Shown: positions 4,414 to 63,955, counted from the first letter of the stretch. The stretch is 64,000 bases of DNA from a virus (IMGVR_UViG_3300025133_000027:112255-176254); one strand, 5' to 3'. The notes: generated by a model not told the origin, from the sequence alone. Numbers and translations are program-made.

Positions 4414-5685
4414 ATGTCTTCAATGTTAGGCCAAGCGATAATAGATGTAGAAGAACTAAAAAGAATTGCCAAAGAAAAGGCAGAGCAAGATATTATCGAG
4501 CAATATTCTTCTAAAGTAAAAAATGTTATGGAGGAGCTTCTTCAGAAGAGTCTTCTTAACGAAGATGAAACCCCTTTCGAGGATGAAGACCTAGGCGGCA
4601 TGGACGATATGGGCGGCATGGACGATATGGGTGGCATGGACGATATGGGTGGAGAAGCTGGTGGTGATGCTGGCGGGCCTATCGAGTTTGGCGACGGTGG
4701 CGACGGTGAAGTCGGTGGAAAAGAAATTGGTGCTAGTGATGATGGTGATAGCACGCCTTCACTTCCACTTGCTGCTCTTGACGGCGAAACAATCGGAAGC
4801 ACAACTTTTCCTAGCGAAGATGAGATGATTGAGATTGACTTAGATAACATTGGAGAAGAAGAGTTCGGAACCTCCGAGAATGAATTTGGTCAAAAAAGCC
4901 CATGGGGACATGATAATGATGACTCTGGTGAAGGCGAGAACGGCGGAAGCTTCCTGAATGAAAGCGCTGATGGCGTAACCGAAGACAGGATATTTGATCC
5001 AAACAAAGAAGAAGACAAAGAAGAAGACAAAGAAGAAGTCCAAGAAGAAGGCGTTGAAGTAGATTACCAAAATGTAAAAACTCCACATGCTCCCTTCGGC
5101 TCCAACAATGAAGAAGACGAGATTAACTTAATGCTCTCACAACTATGTGATGAAGCAGAAGAGTTGGAAAGCAAGAACAAAACAATCAAAAAAGAAAGTC
5201 GTGCTAAGAGTCAAAAGCTCGCAGAAACTATGAAAACTAACGATAATCTTAGGAAAGATATTAAAAAACTAGTTGAAGCTATGAAAATGGTAAACAAGGA
5301 ACTAGTTACTATAACGAACAATTATGAAAAAAGCAATAAAACTGTAAAGTCACTTAAAGCTAATTTCAATATGTTACAATCAGAGAGCAAGAAATTGTTC
5401 TTTAAAAACCAAGTTCTAGAAGATAGGACCTTGAATGCAAGACAGCGAAAGCAGATTGTCGAGGCTATTGAAAGAGCGAAGTCAGGTGAAGAAGCGAAAA
5501 TCGTTTACGAAACGCTTCAAAGCACAGTGGAAGGAAGACGAGTACGCTCCGAACCGAAATCACTTAGCGAGGCCATGGATAAGAGAGCTTCACCATTGTT
5601 GTCAATTAAATCTAGACAACGACCTCTAGAGCCGCCAAAGACAAACCATCGTATTACTCGATGGAAAGAATTAGCGGGTATCTAA
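4414..5685 (+). CDS. Prohead scaffold/core protein, gp22-like
   Basis: Acidic disordered N-half and coiled-coil C-half, immediately upstream of the capsid gene. Confidence 0.7.
   Translation: MSSMLGQAIIDVEELKRIAKEKAEQDIIEQYSSKVKNVMEELLQKSLLNEDETPFEDEDLGGMDDMGGMDDMGGMDDMGGEAGGDAGGPIEFGDGGDGEVGGKEIGASDDGDSTPSLPLAALDGETIGSTTFPSEDEMIEIDLDNIGEEEFGTSENEFGQKSPWGHDNDDSGEGENGGSFLNESADGVTEDRIFDPNKEEDKEEDKEEVQEEGVEVDYQNVKTPHAPFGSNNEEDEINLMLSQLCDEAEELESKNKTIKKESRAKSQKLAETMKTNDNLRKDIKKLVEAMKMVNKELVTITNNYEKSNKTVKSLKANFNMLQSESKKLFFKNQVLEDRTLNARQRKQIVEAIERAKSGEEAKIVYETLQSTVEGRRVRSEPKSLSEAMDKRASPLLSIKSRQRPLEPPKTNHRITRWKELAGI
4594..4647 (+). repeat. 3 x 18 bp coding tandem repeat (GGMDDM)
   Basis: GG(C/T)GGCATGGACGATATG x3. 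Confidence 0.9.
5005..5040 (+). repeat. 3 x 12 bp coding tandem repeat (KEED)
   Basis: AAAGAAGAAG(A/T)C x3. Confidence 0.85.
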
Positions 5686-5714: not shown

Positions 5715-7550
5715 ATGAGTACAATCGTAGAAGCATTAACTCGTGATGTTGTACATACAGACCGTAAGGCAGAAGGCGCAGCTCTCATCAAGAAATGGGA
5801 GAAAGTCGGCTTGCTAGAAGGTCTTTCAACAGAGCGAAGCAAAATTAACATGTCGGTTCTATTAGAGAACCAAGCTAAGGAACTTCTTCGTGAAGCTTCC
5901 TCAATGAGTGCCGGTGACGTAGAAGGTTTCGCATCAGTTGCGTTCCCAATCGTCCGTAGGGTATTCGGTGGTCTTATTGCAAACGAGCTAGTCTCGGTTC
6001 AACCAATGAGTCTTCCATCTGGTCTTATCTTCTTCCTAGACTTTGTCTACAGTGGTAACACACCTGAGAAACTACACAACGGCGCAGTTGCCGGTGCATC
6101 ACTATTCGGTGGTGGCGTAGTTGGTAAGGGAATCACTGGTGGTGTTGACCTTTCAGGTGATAACGCTGAGACTTCTTTTTATGGCCTTAACAACGGCTTT
6201 TCAACTGCTACAGGTAGTATTAATGCGGGTGAAGCAGACACTAACGTCCAGAATGTCGCTCTCCTTGGAACAGAGACTCTTGTTAGCGATCTATCAGCTC
6301 TTGACAAGAAAGTTCTTCGTTATGATCCTGATGTTCTAGGTTCAACACCAAGCGATATTATCGCTGCTGTAGTTGTTACCCTATCTACTGCTGAGATGGC
6401 TCAGATTGATGGTAGCAACTTAGTTACTATCGACCTAGTATCTTCAAGTACAACATCCGACGTTCGTGTTCCTGTTGACGGAGCTCTTGGAGCTACTGAG
6501 ACTAAGGTTATTCGTAGATTAACTCACAAGGGTGCCTGGGATGCTACAGCAACTACACTTTCAGATGAAGATACGAAGATTACTTTTTATCTACAATCCA
6601 CTACTGCTGGTGGATTGGTTGCTGCTAATGTTGCTGGCAACCCTGGCTTAGGCAATACACTTAAGTTCTCACGTAAGGATTCGTGGGGTCAGGGTAACTC
6701 AGTAGGTTCAGTTCTAGCCGAACTTCTAGTCCAAGAAGGGGCGGGTTCTAGTTCGGTAGCTGGTGATGAAAAAGATGGTCACAACCGTACCATCTCAGAA
6801 ATCGACATTAAGCTTGACTCTATCTCGGTAGACGTTAAGACTAAGAAGTTGAAGGCTAAGTGGACTCCTGAGCTTGCTCAAGACATCAACGCTTACCACA
6901 ACATCGATGCTGAAGTTGAGCTAACTGGTATTCTTTCAGAGCACGTTGCTCTTGAAATCGACCAAGAAATCCTTAACGAGCTCGTTTCCGGTGGAACTGG
7001 CGGAACTCTTTACTGGAGTCGTCACGCTGGTAACTTCTTGAACCGTGAAACTGGTGCATCTGTTGTATCAGCTACTGCACCACCTGACTTCACAGGTAAC
7101 GTGTCAGAATGGTACGAGACTCTTATTGAGACAATCAATGATGTGTCTGCACGTATCCACAGAAAGACACTTCGCGGTGGAGCTAACTTCCTAGTAACCT
7201 CACCTGAAATTGCTAACATTCTTGAGTTCACTAGTGGATTCAGAGCAACTGTAAACATGGAAGACCTCAAGGGTGGCTCCGTTGGTGCAGAGAAGGTTGG
7301 TTCACTTTCACGCAAGTGGGATGTGTATGTTGACCCTTACTTCTACCGTAACGTAATTCTGGTAGGACGTAAAGGCAAGTCATTCCTAGAGTCTGGCTTT
7401 GTATACGCACCTTACGTGCCACTACAGACTACACCTACTATCTTCGGAACAGAGGACTTCGTACCACGCAAGGGTATGATGACTCGTTACGCCAAGAAGA
7501 TGGTTCGTCCTGACATGTATGGCCTTGTTGTAGTGCAAGACTTAGTATAA
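5715..7550 (+). CDS. gp23: Major capsid protein, T4 gp23-like
   Basis: VQPMSLPSGLIF, KLKAKWTPELAQD, EIDQEI, YAPYVPL and F.PRKGMMTRY motifs. Confidence 0.96.
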   Translation: MSTIVEALTRDVVHTDRKAEGAALIKKWEKVGLLEGLSTERSKINMSVLLENQAKELLREASSMSAGDVEGFASVAFPIVRRVFGGLIANELVSVQPMSLPSGLIFFLDFVYSGNTPEKLHNGAVAGASLFGGGVVGKGITGGVDLSGDNAETSFYGLNNGFSTATGSINAGEADTNVQNVALLGTETLVSDLSALDKKVLRYDPDVLGSTPSDIIAAVVVTLSTAEMAQIDGSNLVTIDLVSSSTTSDVRVPVDGALGATETKVIRRLTHKGAWDATATTLSDEDTKITFYLQSTTAGGLVAANVAGNPGLGNTLKFSRKDSWGQGNSVGSVLAELLVQEGAGSSSVAGDEKDGHNRTISEIDIKLDSISVDVKTKKLKAKWTPELAQDINAYHNIDAEVELTGILSEHVALEIDQEILNELVSGGTGGTLYWSRHAGNFLNRETGASVVSATAPPDFTGNVSEWYETLIETINDVSARIHRKTLRGGANFLVTSPEIANILEFTSGFRATVNMEDLKGGSVGAEKVGSLSRKWDVYVDPYFYRNVILVGRKGKSFLESGFVYAPYVPLQTTPTIFGTEDFVPRKGMMTRYAKKMVRPDMYGLVVVQDLV

Positions 7551-26379: not shown

Positions 26380-26464
26380 ACAAAAACACCCAAAACAAGT
26401 ATAATACTAATCGCGGAGAGGGAATATTTGCTCTCTCTATAATTTTAAAAAGGAAAAAAATAAT

Positions 26465-27199: not shown

Positions 27200-27242
27200 A
27201 GTTCCAAGCTATGTTGAAATATATGTAGCTTGGAACTTTTTT
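27200..27242 (+). terminator. Rho-independent terminator
   Basis: AGTTCCAAGCTAT/GTAGCTTGGAACT stem followed by a T run. Confidence 0.75.
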
Positions 27243-27259
27243 ACAATAACGGAGTAGTG

Positions 27260-28387
27260 ATGGCAAGGGCTAAGAAAAAGAAAGAAGTAGTAAGAGGCAA
27301 GATAAGCACTGAACAACTAAGAGGCCTTCTTAATAAGAAGGCTGGTGAAACAATTGCTTATGACTTGGGAGCTAATAACCCTACTGATGTAGTGGATTGG
27401 ATTCCTACAGGCGCGAGATGGTTAGACTCCATTATTTGCAAAGGCAAGTTGGCAGGTATTCCTGTTGGCAAAGTTTCTGAAATCGCAGGACTAACTGCGA
27501 CAGGAAAGAGCTATATGGCTGCGCAGATTGCGGCTAATGCCCAGAAGAAAGGAATCGTCCCTGTTTACTTCGACTCAGAGTCAGCACTAGACTCTGACTT
27601 CTTAATTAATGCCGGATGTAACTTGGAAGAGTTGATTTACATCCAGGCAAGGTCTGTAGAATTCGTTCTAGAGACAATTGAGGATATTATGGCAGCTTCT
27701 GAGACGAGGCACTTATTTATCCTTGATTCCCTTGCCTTCACTCCTGCTGAGTCAGACATTGCTGGTGATTATAATCCGCAATCTTCGATGGCAGTGAAGC
27801 CGCGAGTTATGGCCAAGGGTTTATCGAAATTGATAATTCCCTTGGCCAACACTCAGTCAACATTTTTGATTCTAAATCAACTTAAAACAAACATCTCGTC
27901 AAATCTCTTTGATATGAAGATGAATCCATATTTTACTCCTGGTGGTAAAGCAACCGCCTACTCTTACTCATTAAGAATCTGGCTAACTGGGAAACAAACG
28001 AAAGACTCAGCTATCTATGATGATAAGGGATATAAAGTCGGATCTGAGATTAAAGCTCGGCTAAAGAAGTCGAGATTTGGAACTGAAAACAGGACCTGTG
28101 AGTTCAAGATCTTATGGGGCGCTGACTCGGTTGCTATCCAAGATGAAGAGTCCTGGCTTGAGGCAATAAGGCCTTCGGATCAGATTAAAACAGGAGCCTG
28201 GAACACTCTCTTCTATCAAGACGGCACTGAAAAGAAGTTCCAAAGAGCTACTTGGCTTAAAGAATTAGAAGACCCTCTATTCAGAGCCGAAGTGTTAAGA
28301 ATCATGGATGAAGAAGTCATCCAGAAGTTTGAGTCAAGAGAAGGAAATGCTTCCGACTATTATGACTCACAAGATTCAGAGGAATAA
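27260..28387 (+). CDS. recA: RecA/UvsX-like recombinase
   Basis: IPTG...LD, Walker A GLTATGKS, FDSESALD, ILDSLA, NQ and TPGG motifs; ATG 27260 has a GGAG RBS. Confidence 0.92.
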   Translation: MARAKKKKEVVRGKISTEQLRGLLNKKAGETIAYDLGANNPTDVVDWIPTGARWLDSIICKGKLAGIPVGKVSEIAGLTATGKSYMAAQIAANAQKKGIVPVYFDSESALDSDFLINAGCNLEELIYIQARSVEFVLETIEDIMAASETRHLFILDSLAFTPAESDIAGDYNPQSSMAVKPRVMAKGLSKLIIPLANTQSTFLILNQLKTNISSNLFDMKMNPYFTPGGKATAYSYSLRIWLTGKQTKDSAIYDDKGYKVGSEIKARLKKSRFGTENRTCEFKILWGADSVAIQDEESWLEAIRPSDQIKTGAWNTLFYQDGTEKKFQRATWLKELEDPLFRAEVLRIMDEEVIQKFESREGNASDYYDSQDSEE

Positions 28388-28389
28388 CA

Positions 28390-28488
28390 GTGAATTACTA
28401 TAAGGTAACTCTGGTTTATGACGGAAAAGAGTTCCATGGTGGGCGACTCTTGGAAGAACTTAAGAGAATGGCAGAAGGCAATGAATAA
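28390..28488 (+). CDS. 32 aa small ORF, not in the ORF track
   Basis: GAGGA RBS and GTG start; stop overlaps ATG 28481. Confidence 0.4.
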   Translation: MNYYKVTLVYDGKEFHGGRLLEELKRMAEGNE

Positions 28489-28759
28489 TTTAAAGAACCA
28501 AGGTCCTTTGAAAAAAGTTGGCGATACTCTTGGGCACTTCATAGGCGAAAATTATGTAACCATAGAAGGAAAACGTTACCCACTCTTTAAGGATGCACGA
28601 CCACACCAGTTTAGCTCAATAGCATTCCCGATAATAACAAGAGCATTTCCACCACAACTGAGAAACAGCCTTGTTTCAGTTCAACCAATGAGTGTTCCAT
28701 CTGAACAGATTTTTAAAATGGATTTCAAATACACAAACAAGGAAGAAGACGATGAGTGA
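28481..28759 (+). CDS. Small protein with a copy of the capsid N-terminal (Gol-equivalent) segment
   Basis: 24/41 identity to capsid residues 72-112; alternative start at 28418. Confidence 0.75.
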   Translation: MNNLKNQGPLKKVGDTLGHFIGENYVTIEGKRYPLFKDARPHQFSSIAFPIITRAFPPQLRNSLVSVQPMSVPSEQIFKMDFKYTNKEEDDE

Positions 28760-29006
28760 ACGAGATTTTGTATACTGGCTTCAAGGATATCTTGAAGTTA
28801 GTAATGCTAATGAATTAGATGAGTCACAGCTACAAATAGTTAAGGATCACCTAGCCTTGGTCTTAAAAAAAGTAACACCAGAATATGATGGGAATAGGTT
28901 CGTAAACAACCTCGCTAGACTAAGAGGGGAAAGAGATGCGAAGCTTTGTAGCAACGCAGAACTAGAGGAAATAGGTAATGCTCTTCCAGCTCAATTAACA
29001 TGCTAA
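28752..29006 (+). CDS. Hypothetical phage protein
   Basis: F.YWLQG..E...Q...IV.DHL.LV motif. Confidence 0.7.
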   Translation: MSERDFVYWLQGYLEVSNANELDESQLQIVKDHLALVLKKVTPEYDGNRFVNNLARLRGERDAKLCSNAELEEIGNALPAQLTC

Positions 29007-29015
29007 AGGAACCGA

Positions 29016-29978
29016 ATGAACCAACCAAATAGAATATTAATAATTGATGCATTAAACATGTATCTAAGAAGCTTCATTATCAATCCCACACTGACACCAT
29101 CTGGCGACCCTGCCGGTGGTGTTGTTGGTTTTATGAAGAGTTTACAAAAAACAATTAGGGAGATGCAACCAGATCAGGTGTATATTTGCTGGGATGGTCA
29201 GAGAGGCACCAATAACCGAAAGAACTTGAATAAAGACTATAAAGAAGGGCGTAAGCCCATTCGATTCAATCGAAGATTTGCAGAACTCAACGAAGAACAA
29301 GAGCTCCAAAATAAAATCTGGCAACAGCAGAGACTTATTGAGTATCTTAATGAAATGCCAGTTGCACAGTTGCTATTTGATGAAGCGGAGGCTGATGATG
29401 TTATCTCAGCCATCGTAGCAGATACTCCTGGCGTTGAAAAAGTGATTATTTCCATGGATAAAGACTTTTATCAACTCTTAGACAAAGAAACTATCATTTA
29501 TAGCCCAGTTCAAAAGAAGTTTGTGTCGGAAGTTTCTCTTTTGGAAGAAGAAAACATACACCCAGCCAATTTTGCACTAGCAAAAGCAATTGTTGGAGAC
29601 AAATCTGACAATATTCTTGGTGTTCAAGGTGTTGGAATGAAGACTCTAACCAAAAGATTCCCAATGCTAGCGGATCCTAACGCCCATACCATCTCGGAAT
29701 TGCTAATGAAAGCAAAAACAGTCGAGAAACCTTTAAAAATACACACGAATATTATTGAAAGTGAAGATCGAATACGAGAAAACTATAAAGTCGTGCAGTT
29801 GCATATCCCTTCCATTTCCCCAACAAGTAGGGGTACTATTAGGGGGGTACTAGGTGCGTATCCATACATGTTAAACAGGACCGAGATTACGAAAATGATG
29901 ATTCAAGACGGGTTTACCGATCTTAACTGGAATCCATTATTCGCAAATCTACAAAGAATAAGCTTAAATAACAAATAG
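29016..29978 (+). CDS. 5'-3' exonuclease/flap endonuclease (T4 RNase H-like)
   Basis: LIIDALN, WD, YK..R, EADD, S.DKDFYQL and GDKSDNI.GV.GVG.KT motifs. Confidence 0.93.
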   Translation: MNQPNRILIIDALNMYLRSFIINPTLTPSGDPAGGVVGFMKSLQKTIREMQPDQVYICWDGQRGTNNRKNLNKDYKEGRKPIRFNRRFAELNEEQELQNKIWQQQRLIEYLNEMPVAQLLFDEAEADDVISAIVADTPGVEKVIISMDKDFYQLLDKETIIYSPVQKKFVSEVSLLEEENIHPANFALAKAIVGDKSDNILGVQGVGMKTLTKRFPMLADPNAHTISELLMKAKTVEKPLKIHTNIIESEDRIRENYKVVQLHIPSISPTSRGTIRGVLGAYPYMLNRTEITKMMIQDGFTDLNWNPLFANLQRISLNNK

Positions 29979-62613: not shown

Positions 62614-62694
62614 GCTGGTGTGGTGGAATGGTAGACACGCTGGTTTTAGGTACCAGTGCCGCAAGGCGTGCAGGTTCAAGTCCTGTCACCAGTA
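62614..62694 (+). tRNA. tRNA-Leu(TAG)
   Basis: Acceptor GCTGGTG/CACCAGT; anticodon arm CTGGT-TTTAGGT-ACCAG; variable arm; TTCAAGT loop; no encoded CCA. Confidence 0.93.
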
Positions 62695-62703
62695 CCGTAA
62701 GGA

Positions 62704-62755
62704 AGCATCCTGAATAAGATGTTACAGCTTGTTTTCAGCGAGTAAAAACTATTCA
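62704..62755 (+). ncRNA. Pseudoknot motif copy 1
   Basis: AGCATC-CTGAATAA-GATGTT...AAAAAC-TATTCA. Confidence 0.65.
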
Positions 62756-62874
62756 ACATACGAAAGGGAACTTCAAGTGAGTTCCTCCTGTTTAGAGTTA
62801 TATCCTCTAAACAGATTTGACAATTGAATACAATAGCAGCACAGGTGTGAAATAATCATCTAGTGCTGCTCTAT

Positions 62875-62958
62875 GCGAGAGTGGTGGAATGGTATACACA
62901 GGACACTTAAAATGTTCTGGCCTTTATGGCCATGCGGGTTCGATTCCCGTCTCTCGTA
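62875..62958 (+). tRNA. tRNA-Leu(TAA)
   Basis: Acceptor GCGAGAG/CTCTCGT; GGACA-CTTAAAA-TGTTC; variable arm; TTCGATT loop; no encoded CCA. Confidence 0.93.
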
Positions 62959-62963
62959 CTGTT

Positions 62964-63006
62964 TTCCCTGAGCATGGAGTCCGACACATTAGGACATAAC
63001 TGCTTA
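62964..63006 (+). ncRNA. Pseudoknot motif copy 2
   Basis: TTCC-CTGAGCAT-GGAG, hairpin GTCC/GGAC, ATAAC-TGCTTA. Confidence 0.65.
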
Positions 63007-63008
63007 AC

Positions 63009-63083
63009 GCGAATAAGGATCATTTGGTAGATCATCTGCCTTCCAAGCAGACCATCGTGCGGGTTCGAACCCCGCTATTCGCT
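63009..63083 (+). tRNA. tRNA-Gly(TCC), atypical
   Basis: Acceptor GCGAATA/TATTCGC; TCTGC-CTTCCAA-GCAGA; GCGGG-TTCGAAC-CCCGC; U73. Confidence 0.88.
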
Positions 63084-63107
63084 CTGACCCTCCTAAATAT
63101 GAGGACA

Positions 63108-63154
63108 TCTCCAGAACATCTGCTCTGATGAGACCGAAACCGAAAAACTGTTTA
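63108..63154 (+). ncRNA. Degenerate pseudoknot motif copy 3
   Basis: TCTC-CAGAACA...GAGA...AAAAAC-TGTTTA. Confidence 0.35.
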
Positions 63155-63160
63155 TGACCA

Positions 63161-63222
63161 GTAATCCTGAATAAGATTATGTTCTCCTGGGCGTGCAAAG
63201 CTTCGGAGATTAAAACTGTTCA
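63161..63222 (+). ncRNA. Pseudoknot motif copy 4
   Basis: GTAATC-CTGAATAA-GATTAT, hairpin TCTCC/GGAGA, AAAAC-TGTTCA. Confidence 0.65.
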
Positions 63223-63226
63223 ATAT

Positions 63227-63300
63227 CTATGTGTGGCGAAATTTGGTATCGCGCTCCGTTTGGGTCGGAGAGATTGGAGGTTCAAATCCTCTCACATAGA
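63227..63300 (+). tRNA. tRNA-Pro(TGG)
   Basis: Acceptor CTATGTG/CACATAG; CTCCG-TTTGGGT-CGGAG; TTCAAAT loop; no encoded CCA. Confidence 0.93.
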
Positions 63301-63327
63301 CCTTATAGACTTCAAGAAGGGTTTACT

Positions 63328-63549
63328 ATGAAGGAAACAGGAATCATCCTTGGGCAAGAATATAAATGGATTGTGAATGGTCAAATAGCTATAGTTATAG
63401 GTTATGATGAAACGAGAGCGTTCCCATTCGACATTTTTGTATGCAACTGTCTTGAAAGACTCACTTCCTATAGGTGTGCATCCCGAATGGAGCTTTCAAC
63501 TTTCCCTGGTTCCAAAAAATATCCTGTATTTATAGATGAAAGTAATTAA
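63328..63549 (+). CDS. Small hypothetical protein within the tRNA cluster
   Basis: ATG after tRNA-Pro; I.LGQ.Y...AI...YPVF pattern shared with 63641. Confidence 0.6.
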   Translation: MKETGIILGQEYKWIVNGQIAIVIGYDETRAFPFDIFVCNCLERLTSYRCASRMELSTFPGSKKYPVFIDESN

Positions 63550-63584
63550 AGTATCATCAAAAACAACAAAACTGGAGGAAAACA

Positions 63585-63644
63585 ATGGCAACTGAAAAAG
63601 AAAATAAACGTCAAGAATGGTTAGAACTGAGATATTTACAATGA
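63585..63644 (+). CDS. 19 aa mini-ORF (MATEKENKRQEWLELRYLQ)
   Basis: Strong GGAGG RBS; ATGA overlap with 63641. Confidence 0.4.
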   Translation: MATEKENKRQEWLELRYLQ

Positions 63645-63898
63645 AAATTAAATTAGGACAAGTTTATTACTCCCATCATTTTGATAGTCTTGCAATAGCT
63701 ACTGAGTATATTACAAATAAACAACCCGGTTATGAACAGTGGACGGTTATAGCCAAGATGTTCGATTGTTCTACTGTAAGCTTATATGGTCAAGAGGAAG
63801 CTCATCGTGACTATGAATTAGAGATTGACTCTGGATTGAATCTGAGGTATCCTGTATTCTCAAAGGAAAATAGCGTCCATGGGGACAAGCAGTCTTGA
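63641..63898 (+). CDS. Small hypothetical protein overlapping tRNA-Ser
   Basis: Paralog of 63328; its TGA stop is the tRNA-Ser anticodon. Confidence 0.55.
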   Translation: MKIKLGQVYYSHHFDSLAIATEYITNKQPGYEQWTVIAKMFDCSTVSLYGQEEAHRDYELEIDSGLNLRYPVFSKENSVHGDKQS

Positions 63899-63955
63899 AA
63901 ACTGTGCCATTGGGTGAGTAGCCTGTTGGGGGTTCGATTCCTCTATTTTCCGCCA
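63865..63955 (+). tRNA. tRNA-Ser(TGA), atypical 8/4-type fold, CCA encoded
   Basis: GGAAAATA/TATTTTCC-G-CCA; D arm GTCC-ATGG-GGAC; GCAGT-CTTGAAA-ACTGT; long variable arm; TTCGATT loop. Confidence 0.85.

What the first reader, a model, noticed from the sequence alone, without database searches (positions are those of the whole stretch)
28481..28759. Small early-region protein carries a copy of the capsid Gol-equivalent segment (candidate capsid decoy)
Seen: FSSIAFPIITRAFPPQLRNSLVSVQPMSVPSEQIFKMDFKY (28610-28732) aligns without gaps to capsid residues 72-112, FASVAFPIVRRVFGGLIANELVSVQPMSLPSGLIFFLDFVY (5928-6050), at 24/41 identity. DNA GTTCAACCAATGAGT[C/G]TTCCATCTG is shared. The rest of the ORF is unrelated to the capsid, and it sits between recA and the 5'-3' exonuclease, 22 kb from the head genes and without a late motif. 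Established: this part of T4 gp23 is the Gol peptide (recalled as ...VRRAIPNLIAFDICGVQPMNSPTG), which binds EF-Tu and triggers the Lit protease, and capsid proteins are known triggers of abortive-infection sensors. Inference: an early-expressed mimic that titrates a capsid-sensing defence, or a dominant-negative or assembly modulator. The GG to PP and RR to TR changes would fit binding without activating.
Basis: partly seen in the sequence, partly recalled or inferred. Interest (0 to 1): 0.85.

Follow-up and report, generated by a model that had tools for sequence, protein, structure and literature searches.

The report
Stand-alone capsid N-arm (Gol) mini-protein
A T4-like phage carries, among its replication genes, a small conserved accessory gene whose product displays only the most conserved 42-residue stretch of the phage's own capsid protein (the stretch that in T4 binds host EF-Tu and trips the Lit defence); at least 64 sequence clusters of such mini-proteins exist in other phages, and their function is untested.

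Summary
ORF 28481-28759 (+) matches capsid residues 72-113 at 24/42 identity without gaps (E 5e-14). It passes the Pfam Gp23 threshold, but only over profile positions 3-49 of 376.

It is a real gene, not a decaying copy:
- The frame and position (recA, mini, coupled small ORF, 5'-3' exonuclease) are kept in relatives at 90% and about 50% identity.
- dN/dS is about 0.2 at dS about 1.5.
- Synonymous sites against the capsid copy are randomised, so the copy is old and held by selection on the protein.

At least 64 cluster representatives of short proteins (median 118 aa) share the architecture: an unrelated N-terminal part, the 42-aa motif, then a short tail. Their N-termini are very diverse. 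Seven examined on their contigs are complete ORFs, and four of them lie beside replication or nucleotide-metabolism genes or among small unnamed ORFs.

The gene is accessory. None of 10 related long viral records has one, and the recA-exonuclease gap holds unrelated small ORFs in five relatives.

The motif is predicted to be disordered. In T4 it corresponds to gp23 residues 91-131, the N-arm plus the first E-loop strand, which includes Gol.

Function is untested. My best reading (0.4) is a trans-acting mimic of nascent capsid protein aimed at a host factor, either EF-Tu or a motif-sensing defence.

The parts
28481..28759 (+). Mini-protein gene (92 aa from the start shared with homologs): N-terminal 43 residues of no known family, the 42-residue capsid motif, then an acidic tail ending EDDE
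28418..28480 (+). In-frame upstream extension (alternative ATG, giving 113 aa). It is open only in this lineage, as a by-product of a roughly 290-bp deletion
   Evidence: P0001 (99% identical, 113 aa) shares it
28610..28735 (+). The 42-codon capsid N-arm/Gol-equivalent motif inside the mini gene
28390..28488 (+). 32-aa remnant of a 106-aa ORF that is intact in relative L004. The last 10 residues match at 8 of 10, with the final six (MAEGNE) identical
28752..29006 (+). Downstream 84-aa ORF (phrog_28500, function unknown). Its ATG lies 8 nt before the mini's stop (ATGAGTGA). The overlap is kept in L004 and L015
5715..7550 (+). Major capsid protein (gp23 family, 611 aa), the full-length paralog
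5928..6053 (+). The capsid's own copy of the motif (residues 72-113). It equals T4 gp23 91-131
27230..28387 (+). RecA/UvsX-type recombinase, upstream neighbour
29016..29978 (+). 5'-3' exonuclease (RNase H/FEN type), downstream neighbour

Best explanation
The gene encodes a small accessory protein, probably made with the replication genes, before or independently of head assembly. Its working part is a flexible linear peptide: a conserved copy of the capsid protein's N-arm plus first E-loop strand, which in T4 is the Gol segment. I propose that it acts in trans as a mimic of newly made, unassembled capsid protein. Its target would be a host component that recognises this peptide.

The one partner shown by experiment for the isolated peptide is EF-Tu (domains II-III, GDP form). 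The mini would therefore engage EF-Tu, or a Lit-type or other motif-reading immune sensor. That would happen before the capsid protein appears. The effect would be to blunt or pre-empt sensing, or to adjust translation.

Shown: homology, selection, family breadth, accessory status, genomic context, and predicted disorder of the motif.
Inferred: expression time, the partner, and the outcome.
For: 1. It is a real, selected gene. The frame and synteny are kept at 90% and about 50% identity. dN/dS is 0.22 at dS about 1.5. There are 24/42 identities to the capsid although synonymous sites are random.

2. The selected unit is the peptide.
- 64 cluster representatives of short proteins carry it, with Q25 and P26 in 100%, M27, P30 and F35 in 97%, and P7 in 95%.
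- It is joined to N-termini that fall into at least 8 unrelated groups plus 25 singletons.
- The minis end a median of 13.5 residues after it.

3. The peptide is not a fold. In the window's mini the model has pLDDT 61 and pTM 0.23, with the motif mostly coil. In P0011 the N-domain is confident (pLDDT about 90) while the motif tail scores 50-58. This fits a displayed linear motif.

4. It behaves as an accessory gene.
- 0 of 10 related long viral records have a second Gp23 hit.
- The recA-exonuclease gap holds unrelated small ORFs in 5 complete relatives.
- A neighbouring ORF is gained or lost between 90%-identical genomes.
This patchy, fast-evolving pattern is typical of host-interaction genes rather than core morphogenesis genes.

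5. Context is not late. The minis lie next to recA, gp32 and DnaB (window, L004, L015), next to DNA pol III alpha (L016), beside ThyX, a deoxyribosyltransferase and pol III alpha (L098), or among small ORFs (L097). No late-type motif lies nearby.

6. Established knowledge (PMC3014915).
- A 29-residue Gol peptide suffices to bind EF-Tu domains II-III and to license Lit.
- Gol is the most conserved part of gp23.
- Kleanthous and colleagues suggested that gp23 proteins of T4-related phages bind the EF-Tu of their respective hosts.
A very conserved host partner would explain why the peptide stays nearly constant in minis from very different phages.
Against: - No binding was shown.
- A faithful Gol copy should activate, not block, a Lit-type sensor (PMC3014915).
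- The window's mini is divergent exactly in the N-arm half (consensus against the window row). That half also carries an indel and substitutions between 90%-identical relatives. If that half contacts EF-Tu, binding may be weakened.
- The same conservation pattern is expected if the partner is the capsid protein, scaffold or portal.
- In the two genomes where both copies are known (the window and Phosso), the mini shares lineage-specific residues with its own capsid. That would also fit co-evolution with the capsid.
- Expression timing is inferred from position only.
- The host is unknown.
Confidence: 0.4

Rival explanations
1. Head-assembly modulator. The free N-arm/E-loop-strand peptide binds the phage's own capsid protein, scaffold core or portal. 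It would act as a chaperone, an initiation factor, or a size or timing regulator, functionally like T4 gp40 or gp31, which are also made before the structural proteins.
For: - The motif keeps the same residues as capsids do.
- In T4 this segment lies inside the prohead near the scaffold, carries head-length mutations (A94V, G97S) and Met98, which contacts the portal whisker, and later makes inter-subunit contacts (PMC9546572, PMC7136217, PMC9958956).
- T4 has a small head-initiation gene (40) at the same place, directly after uvsX.
- The mini shares lineage-specific residues with its own capsid in the window and in Phosso.
Against: - 10 of 10 related long records with the same type of capsid lack it, so it is not needed to build this capsid.
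- The slot is hypervariable.
- There is no similarity to gp40.
- The diverse N-terminal modules are hard to explain for one assembly role.
Confidence: 0.25
2. Weapon against competing phages. An early-made dominant-negative capsid fragment poisons head assembly of co-infecting or superinfecting gp23-type phages, while the resident capsid tolerates it.
For: - Accessory, patchy distribution.
- The motif is the most conserved part of gp23-type capsids, so it would act broadly (PMC3014915; one search shows it matches capsids of about 400 cultured phages).
- The resident capsid differs from the mini at GG/PP and other sites.
Against: There is no precedent and no test. The fragment would also meet the resident capsid protein, which shares 24 of the 42 residues.
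Confidence: 0.1
3. Packaged or internal head protein. The capsid-derived peptide serves as a targeting tag that co-assembles the small N-terminal cargo into the prohead for injection.
For: - Variable small N-terminal 'cargo' plus a constant tag.
- The corresponding gp23 segment faces the scaffold in the prohead (PMC9546572).
- An earlier unverified note (e1-5741427) proposes a packaged-protein set in this genome.
Against: - There is no [LIV]-x-E protease site in the conserved protein. The only one (NLRE) lies in the window-specific upstream extension.
- The gene sits in the replication module, without the late-type motif.
- The N-part is only 43 residues here.
Confidence: 0.1
4. Functionless remnant of a partial capsid-gene duplication that happens to stay open.
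For: - It evolves about 7 times faster in dN/dS than recA and the exonuclease.
- There is an indel inside the motif between close relatives.
Against: - dN/dS is 0.2 at saturated dS and the frame is intact in three lineages.
- The motif is kept at 57% identity although synonymous sites are random.
- 64 clusters have the same boundaries.
- Translational coupling to the next gene is conserved.
Confidence: 0.05

Closest known systems
T4 Gol peptide (gp23 residues about 93-122) with EF-Tu and the e14 Lit protease
   Same: Homologous segment: the window capsid and the mini align to T4 gp23 91-131. In T4 it works as an isolated short peptide, which is what the mini displays.
   Different: In T4 the peptide exists only inside the capsid protein and is made late. 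Here it is a separate gene in the replication module. Binding to EF-Tu and any effect on a Lit-type protease are untested. About 11 of 30 residues are shared with T4 Gol (my count).
Major capsid protein family Gp23 (PF07068; phrog_138)
   Same: Significant profile match. Databases label such short proteins Gp23 or 'major head protein'.
   Different: The match covers only profile positions 3-49 of 376. There is no HK97-fold body (no A or P domain, no insertion domain), so it cannot be a shell subunit.
phrog_12830 (128-position profile, labelled 'major head protein')
   Same: The motif sits at the C-end of this short profile (positions about 93-127). P0024 matches it over 46-126, including its N-domain, so this PHROG probably collects minis of cultured phages.
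   Different: The window's mini matches it only weakly (E 0.055). No function is known, and the label comes from similarity alone.
T4 gp40, head vertex assembly chaperone (phrog_999)
   Same: A small gene (114 aa) directly downstream of uvsX and upstream of the replicative helicase, with a head-assembly role.
   Different: There is no sequence or profile similarity, and gp40 has no Gol-like motif.
Phage anti-defence proteins that compete with the structural trigger, e.g. DSAD1 against DSR2 (PMC11087589)
   Same: The concept: a small phage protein counteracts a sensor that recognises a structural phage protein.
   Different: As far as I know, DSAD1 is not derived from the trigger. Here the candidate is a fragment of the trigger itself. 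I found no described case of that in the paper library.

Membership tests
Gp23 major capsid protein (PF07068) | Profile match above the curated cut-off | tested here: met
   31.0 bits against 24.4; also found by the genome scan
Gp23 major capsid protein (PF07068) | Full HK97-type body (P domain, A domain, E-loop hairpin) able to form capsomers | tested here: not met
   Only profile positions 3-49 of 376 are matched. The protein is 92 aa. The model has no stable fold in the motif
T4 Gol peptide (functional class) | Homology to gp23 residues about 93-122 | tested here: met
   Mini to window capsid, and window capsid to T4 gp23*
T4 Gol peptide (functional class) | Binds EF-Tu domains II-III (GDP form) | not testable with these tools
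   Needs a binding assay. No usable computational answer was obtained (see Tried and rejected)
T4 Gol peptide (functional class) | Licenses Lit cleavage of EF-Tu at Gly59-Ile60 | not testable with these tools
   Biochemical assay required. The host and its defences are unknown
T4 gp40 head vertex assembly chaperone (phrog_999) | Sequence or profile similarity to gp40 | tested here: not met
   BLASTP E 0.13; hhalign probability 0.1%; phrog_999 is hit by gp40 only
T4 gp40 head vertex assembly chaperone (phrog_999) | Position directly downstream of uvsX/recA in the replication operon | tested here: met
   (position only)
T4-type internal head proteins with a capsid-targeting leader | N-terminal leader ending in a [LIV]-x-E prohead-protease site | tested here: not met
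   None in the conserved 92-aa protein or in P0002 and P0004. NLRE occurs only in the lineage-specific upstream extension
Phage anti-defence or accessory genes | Patchy presence in a hypervariable slot between conserved core genes; faster evolution than neighbours | tested here: met
Phage anti-defence or accessory genes | Demonstrated inhibition of a defence system | not testable with these tools
   Experiment required

The most novel reading that the evidence does not exclude
Phages of the gp23 lineage repeatedly detach the most conserved peptide of their capsid protein (the PAMP-like Gol/N-arm segment). They express it early on assorted small carriers as a self-derived decoy. The decoy occupies EF-Tu or a motif-reading immune sensor before the real capsid protein appears. 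This would be a phage counter-defence built from a fragment of the trigger itself. It would also imply that Gol-EF-Tu binding is a general, physiologically used interaction.
Probability: 0.2. Interest if true: 0.9.

Novelty: new variant of a known kind. Interest (0 to 1): 0.68.

Why it matters
The Gol segment is the classic example of a short capsid motif read by a bacterial abortive-infection system. Why it is the most conserved part of gp23, and whether its EF-Tu binding serves the phage, have been open questions since 2000.

A natural, widespread set of proteins that consist of little more than this peptide gives a direct handle on both. If the minis bind EF-Tu, the interaction is selected for its own sake. 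If they block or trigger Lit-type or other capsid sensors, they are a new class of counter-defence, or of inter-phage weapon, made from the trigger itself. If they bind capsid protein, scaffold or portal, they are a new kind of assembly factor.

There is also a practical consequence. Databases currently label these genes 'Gp23' or 'major head protein', which is misleading.

Tried and rejected
1. Complex prediction of the mini's motif (residues 38-92, 48-row alignment) with domains II-III of Flavobacterium johnsoniae EF-Tu, used as a stand-in host. The tool gave no answer: score 0.00 against a mark of 0.32, and the controls were not run. This is neither for nor against binding.

2. Homology of the mini's N-terminal 43 residues to the capsid propeptide. 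tblastn extends the alignment there, but a profile of 70 capsid N-termini scores it no better than 1000 shuffles. Rejected.

3. Recent duplication or gene conversion as the source of the shared 25-mer. Rejected, because same-codon use equals the codon-bias expectation.

4. Homology to T4 gp40. Rejected.

5. Looking for more minis in IMG/VR.
- The single-protein query found no close relatives.
- The P0011 query found none.
- The profile query and the P0024 query were swamped by capsid genes. All 80 plus 80 loci are capsids or capsid fragments at contig ends.

6. Cultured phages. tblastn with the mini, P0011 and P0024 hit only capsid genes, except for Sinorhizobium phage Phosso. The 'hypothetical protein' hits in RsoM2USA and RAS14 look like unannotated capsid genes: ORFs of 411 and 462 aa.

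7. Fold of the N-domain of the largest mini subgroup. No PDB match with E below 0.3.

8. ESM Atlas look-alikes. Nothing above chance.

10. Paper searches for a described capsid-fragment decoy or a stand-alone Gol found none. The library is incomplete, so this is not proof of novelty.

Full report
**What is there**

The window is the last 64 kb of a 176-kb, 97%-complete viral record from IMG/VR. All large genes are on the + strand, in this order:
- prohead protease (2605)
- an acidic scaffold-like protein (4414)
- the gp23-type major capsid protein (5715..7550, 611 aa)
- tail sheath, tube and baseplate hub genes
- a polymerase block
- gp32 (26465)
- a RecA/UvsX recombinase (27230..28387)
- the ORF in question
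- an 84-aa ORF
- a 5'-3' exonuclease (29016..29978)

The closest cultured capsids belong to Flavobacterium phage immuto, Microcystis phage Mel-JY01 and Rhodothermus phage RM378, at 43-48% identity over a little more than half of the protein. This is therefore a distant T4-type myovirus of unknown host, with 37-40% G+C.

The ORF is open from 28418 (113 aa). Its homologs start at the ATG that corresponds to 28481 (92 aa). Compared with the 90%-identical relative L004, the window has lost about 290 bp. That deletion removed a 106-aa upstream ORF and left a 32-aa remnant at 28390..28488. It also opened the in-frame upstream extension by accident.

Residues 65-106 of the 113-aa form align without gaps to capsid residues 72-113, with 24/42 identities and E 5e-14. 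Pfam Gp23 is passed at 31 bits (cut-off 24.4), but only over profile positions 3-49 of 376. PHROG capsid families hit the same stretch.

The rest of the ORF has no demonstrable relation to the capsid. A tblastn alignment can be stretched into the capsid propeptide, but a profile built from 70 capsid N-termini scores the mini's first 43 residues no better than shuffled versions.

**Which part of the capsid this is**

The window capsid aligns to T4 gp23* (PDB 5vf3, 8t9r) so that the segment corresponds to T4 residues 91-131. The numbering agrees with A94, G97, M98 and L106 as named in PMC9546572.

In T4 the N-fist is residues 66-91 (PMC7136217). Residues 66-105 are disordered in the unexpanded head, and the first ordered residue, L106, points into the capsid. 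The authors infer that this N-terminal region lay inside the shell and probably contacted the scaffolding core. After expansion it becomes the external N-arm, which makes contacts within and between capsomers (PMC9546572, PMC9958956). The insertion-domain linker starts at residue 132, and the insertion domain sits in the E-loop (PMC9546572, PMC9958956).

The copied piece is therefore the N-arm after the N-fist, plus what I take to be the first E-loop strand. The same piece contains Gol. Gol is a 29-residue peptide that by itself binds EF-Tu domains II-III and lets the Lit protease cut EF-Tu. It is the most conserved part of gp23 (PMC3014915).

**It is a selected gene, and an old one**

The arrangement gp32, recA, (small ORFs), mini, small ORF, exonuclease, DnaB helicase recurs on contig L004 (mini 90% identical) and on contig L015 (mini 47-52% identical). 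In all three, the mini's stop overlaps the start of the next ORF by 8 nt.

Nei-Gojobori estimates:

| Gene and comparison | dN/dS | Note |
|---|---|---|
| Mini, window vs L015 | 0.22 | dS about 1.5 |
| Mini, window vs L004 | 0.42 | only 16 differences |
| recA and exonuclease | 0.03-0.05 | |
| Downstream small ORF, window vs L015 and L004 vs L015 | about 0.2 | window vs L004 gives 0.54 on 3 differences |

Between the mini's motif and the capsid's motif in this genome, synonymous positions are random. Of 24 conserved residues, 11 use the same codon, and codon usage predicts 10.4 +/- 2.3. The 57% protein identity is held by selection on the peptide, not by recency.

Between the two closest relatives, the changes concentrate in the N-arm half of the motif, including a 3-bp indel. 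The second half, from LVSVQPM to FKY, differs at only one residue (E/G).

**It belongs to a large, unnamed family**

An exhaustive profile-free search of 1.84 billion cluster representatives gave 195 hits at E up to 1e-3. Among the 150 listed, I sorted them by similarity to the capsid's flanks and by the motif. Sixty-four are short proteins (59-229 aa, median 118) whose sequence outside the motif is unrelated to capsids.

Their consensus is F..(I)AFP.VRRVFP.L.AN.LVSVQPM..P.G..FY.DY.Y. Conservation at selected positions:
- Q25 and P26: 100%
- M27, P30 and F35: 97%
- P7: 95%
- S23: 92%
- D38: 91%

They end a median of 13.5 residues after the motif, often with an acidic tail. Their N-terminal parts fall into at least 8 mutually unrelated groups plus 25 singletons.

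All seven that I examined on their contigs are complete, internal ORFs: P0002, P0003, P0004, P0009, P0010, P0011 and P0024. Their contexts are:
- beside DNA polymerase III alpha (P0009, L016)
- among ThyX, an IMPDH-like gene, a nucleoside deoxyribosyltransferase and pol III alpha (P0024, L098)
- inside a run of small unnamed ORFs (P0011, L097)
- in the recA slot

A cultured example is Sinorhizobium jumbo phage Phosso. It has a 414-aa gp23-type capsid gene. About 65 kb away, the motif lies in an unannotated stretch, in frame with and upstream of an annotated hypothetical CDS.

phrog_12830 is a 128-position profile labelled 'major head protein' whose C-end is the motif. It is probably a collection of such minis.

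**The motif is a displayed peptide, not a domain**

AlphaFold2 with a 48-row alignment gives the window's mini pLDDT 61 and pTM 0.23. There are three short strands in residues 19-34, and the motif is essentially coil.

For P0011, from the largest subgroup, residues 1-70 form a confident beta-domain (pLDDT about 90), while the motif and tail score 50-58. That domain has no significant PDB neighbour.

**It is accessory**

Ten long viral records whose capsid motifs are the closest to the mini each contain one Gp23 locus only. Five of the ten are rated 100% complete. The same search did find the mini in the window's own genome.

In those five complete genomes recA and the exonuclease are again neighbours, but the gap between them holds different small ORFs (98 aa; 101, 81 and 67 aa; 123 aa; 50 aa) or none. 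The mini therefore sits in a hypervariable slot and is not needed to build this type of capsid.

**Expression**

The octamer that reads TATTTATA on the + strand is over-represented in the window: 16 matches (searched as TATAAATA on both strands) against 5.4 expected by chance. It sits just upstream of head genes, at 321, 2285, 4381 and 7625. None lies between 26000 and 31500.

A terminator-like hairpin lies at 26415-26438, just before gp32. Together these features are compatible with co-transcription of the mini with gp32 and recA. This is context only. No expression data could be obtained.

**How it most likely works**

The evidence points to a trans-acting linear motif carried on interchangeable small handles, under purifying selection, in non-late accessory positions.

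The only activity known for this peptide when it is detached from the capsid protein is binding to EF-Tu, which in E. coli carrying e14 also licenses Lit (PMC3014915). The near-constancy of the peptide across minis from very different phages is easiest to explain by a very conserved partner. EF-Tu fits that description, and a fast-diverging capsid protein fits less well.

I therefore rank first (0.4) a mimic of nascent capsid protein that engages EF-Tu and/or a motif-reading immune sensor. The partner and the outcome are inferred.

The main counter-arguments are these:
- A faithful Gol copy should activate Lit rather than block it.
- The window's mini is most divergent in the N-arm half.
- In the two genomes where both copies are known, the mini shares lineage-specific residues with its own capsid (DF.Y and SVQPMS.PS here; RVMP, GV.PM and R.RY in Phosso). 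That would also fit a capsid partner or repeated origin from the resident capsid gene.

Rivals:
- Assembly modulator (0.25). It is supported by what the segment does in T4 heads and by the positional analogy with T4 gene 40 directly after uvsX. It is weakened by the absence of the mini from 10 of 10 relatives and by the lack of any similarity to gp40.
- Anti-competitor dominant-negative fragment (0.1).
- Packaged protein with a capsid-derived tag (0.1). The conserved protein has no L-x-E protease site.
- Neutral remnant (0.05). This is contradicted.

'GG to PP' cannot mean loss of activation:
- T4's activating Gol has proline at that place.
- 53 of 64 minis have proline there, against 3 of 86 capsids of this clade. 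GG is the clade-specific oddity.
- 'RR to TR' is private to the window's lineage.

**Novelty and limits**

I found no paper that describes stand-alone Gol/N-arm proteins or a capsid-fragment decoy. The library is partial. Databases carry these proteins under the capsid family name.

The single complex prediction, with stand-in EF-Tu domains II-III, returned no answer and carries no weight either way.

Noticed in passing
window 28388-28488; L004:5688-6008: Relative to the 90%-identical contig L004, the window lacks about 290 bp. This removes a 106-aa ORF between recA and the mini, leaves a 32-aa remnant, and opens an alternative upstream start (28418) for the mini.
   Followed up: yes
window 28752-29006: An 84-aa ORF (phrog_28500, unknown function; N-terminal DFVYWLQGYLE motif) is translationally coupled to the mini by an 8-nt overlap. 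It is conserved with the mini in L004 and L015, but the ORF after mini P0009 is not related. It may form a two-gene unit in this lineage.
   Followed up: partly
window 321, 2285, 4381, 7625 (reads TATTTATA on the + strand): The octamer is over-represented (16 matches against 5.4 expected) and lies just upstream of head genes on the coding strand. It is a candidate late-promoter element for this phage clade.
   Followed up: partly
recA-exonuclease gap: window 28388-29015; L118-L122: Across five complete related genomes, the gap between recA and the 5'-3' exonuclease holds entirely different small ORFs, or none. It is a hypervariable accessory-gene slot at the position where T4 has gene 40.
   Followed up: partly
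L009:2896-3576 (Sinorhizobium phage Phosso, PV764938.1 about 182170-182855); L013: The capsid motif lies in an unannotated stretch, in frame with and upstream of annotated CDS 276, so that CDS is probably longer than annotated. A separate 145-aa frame elsewhere in the genome matches the C-terminal part of the Gp23 profile (positions 305-354, below cut-off).
   Followed up: partly
L008:2893-4128 (Ralstonia phage RsoM2USA_383); L100:3824-5212 (Stenotrophomonas phage RAS14): These 'hypothetical proteins' of 411 and 462 aa carry the gp23 N-arm motif at the expected place. They look like unannotated major capsid proteins of these jumbo phages.
   Followed up: no
window 4414-5685: The protein encoded just before the capsid gene is very acidic, with tandem MGGMDD repeats and a lysine- and glutamate-rich C-terminal half. 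It matches no PHROG and is presumably the scaffold core protein.
   Followed up: no
L007:654-1532: The gene after mini P0003 reads like a glycosyltransferase interrupted after 'SWIGGS' by a Cys-initiated insert that resembles an intein. Judged by eye only.
   Followed up: no
window 62614-63955: A cluster of five tRNA genes: Leu-TAG, Leu-TAA, Gly-TCC, Pro-TGG and Ser-TGA.
   Followed up: no
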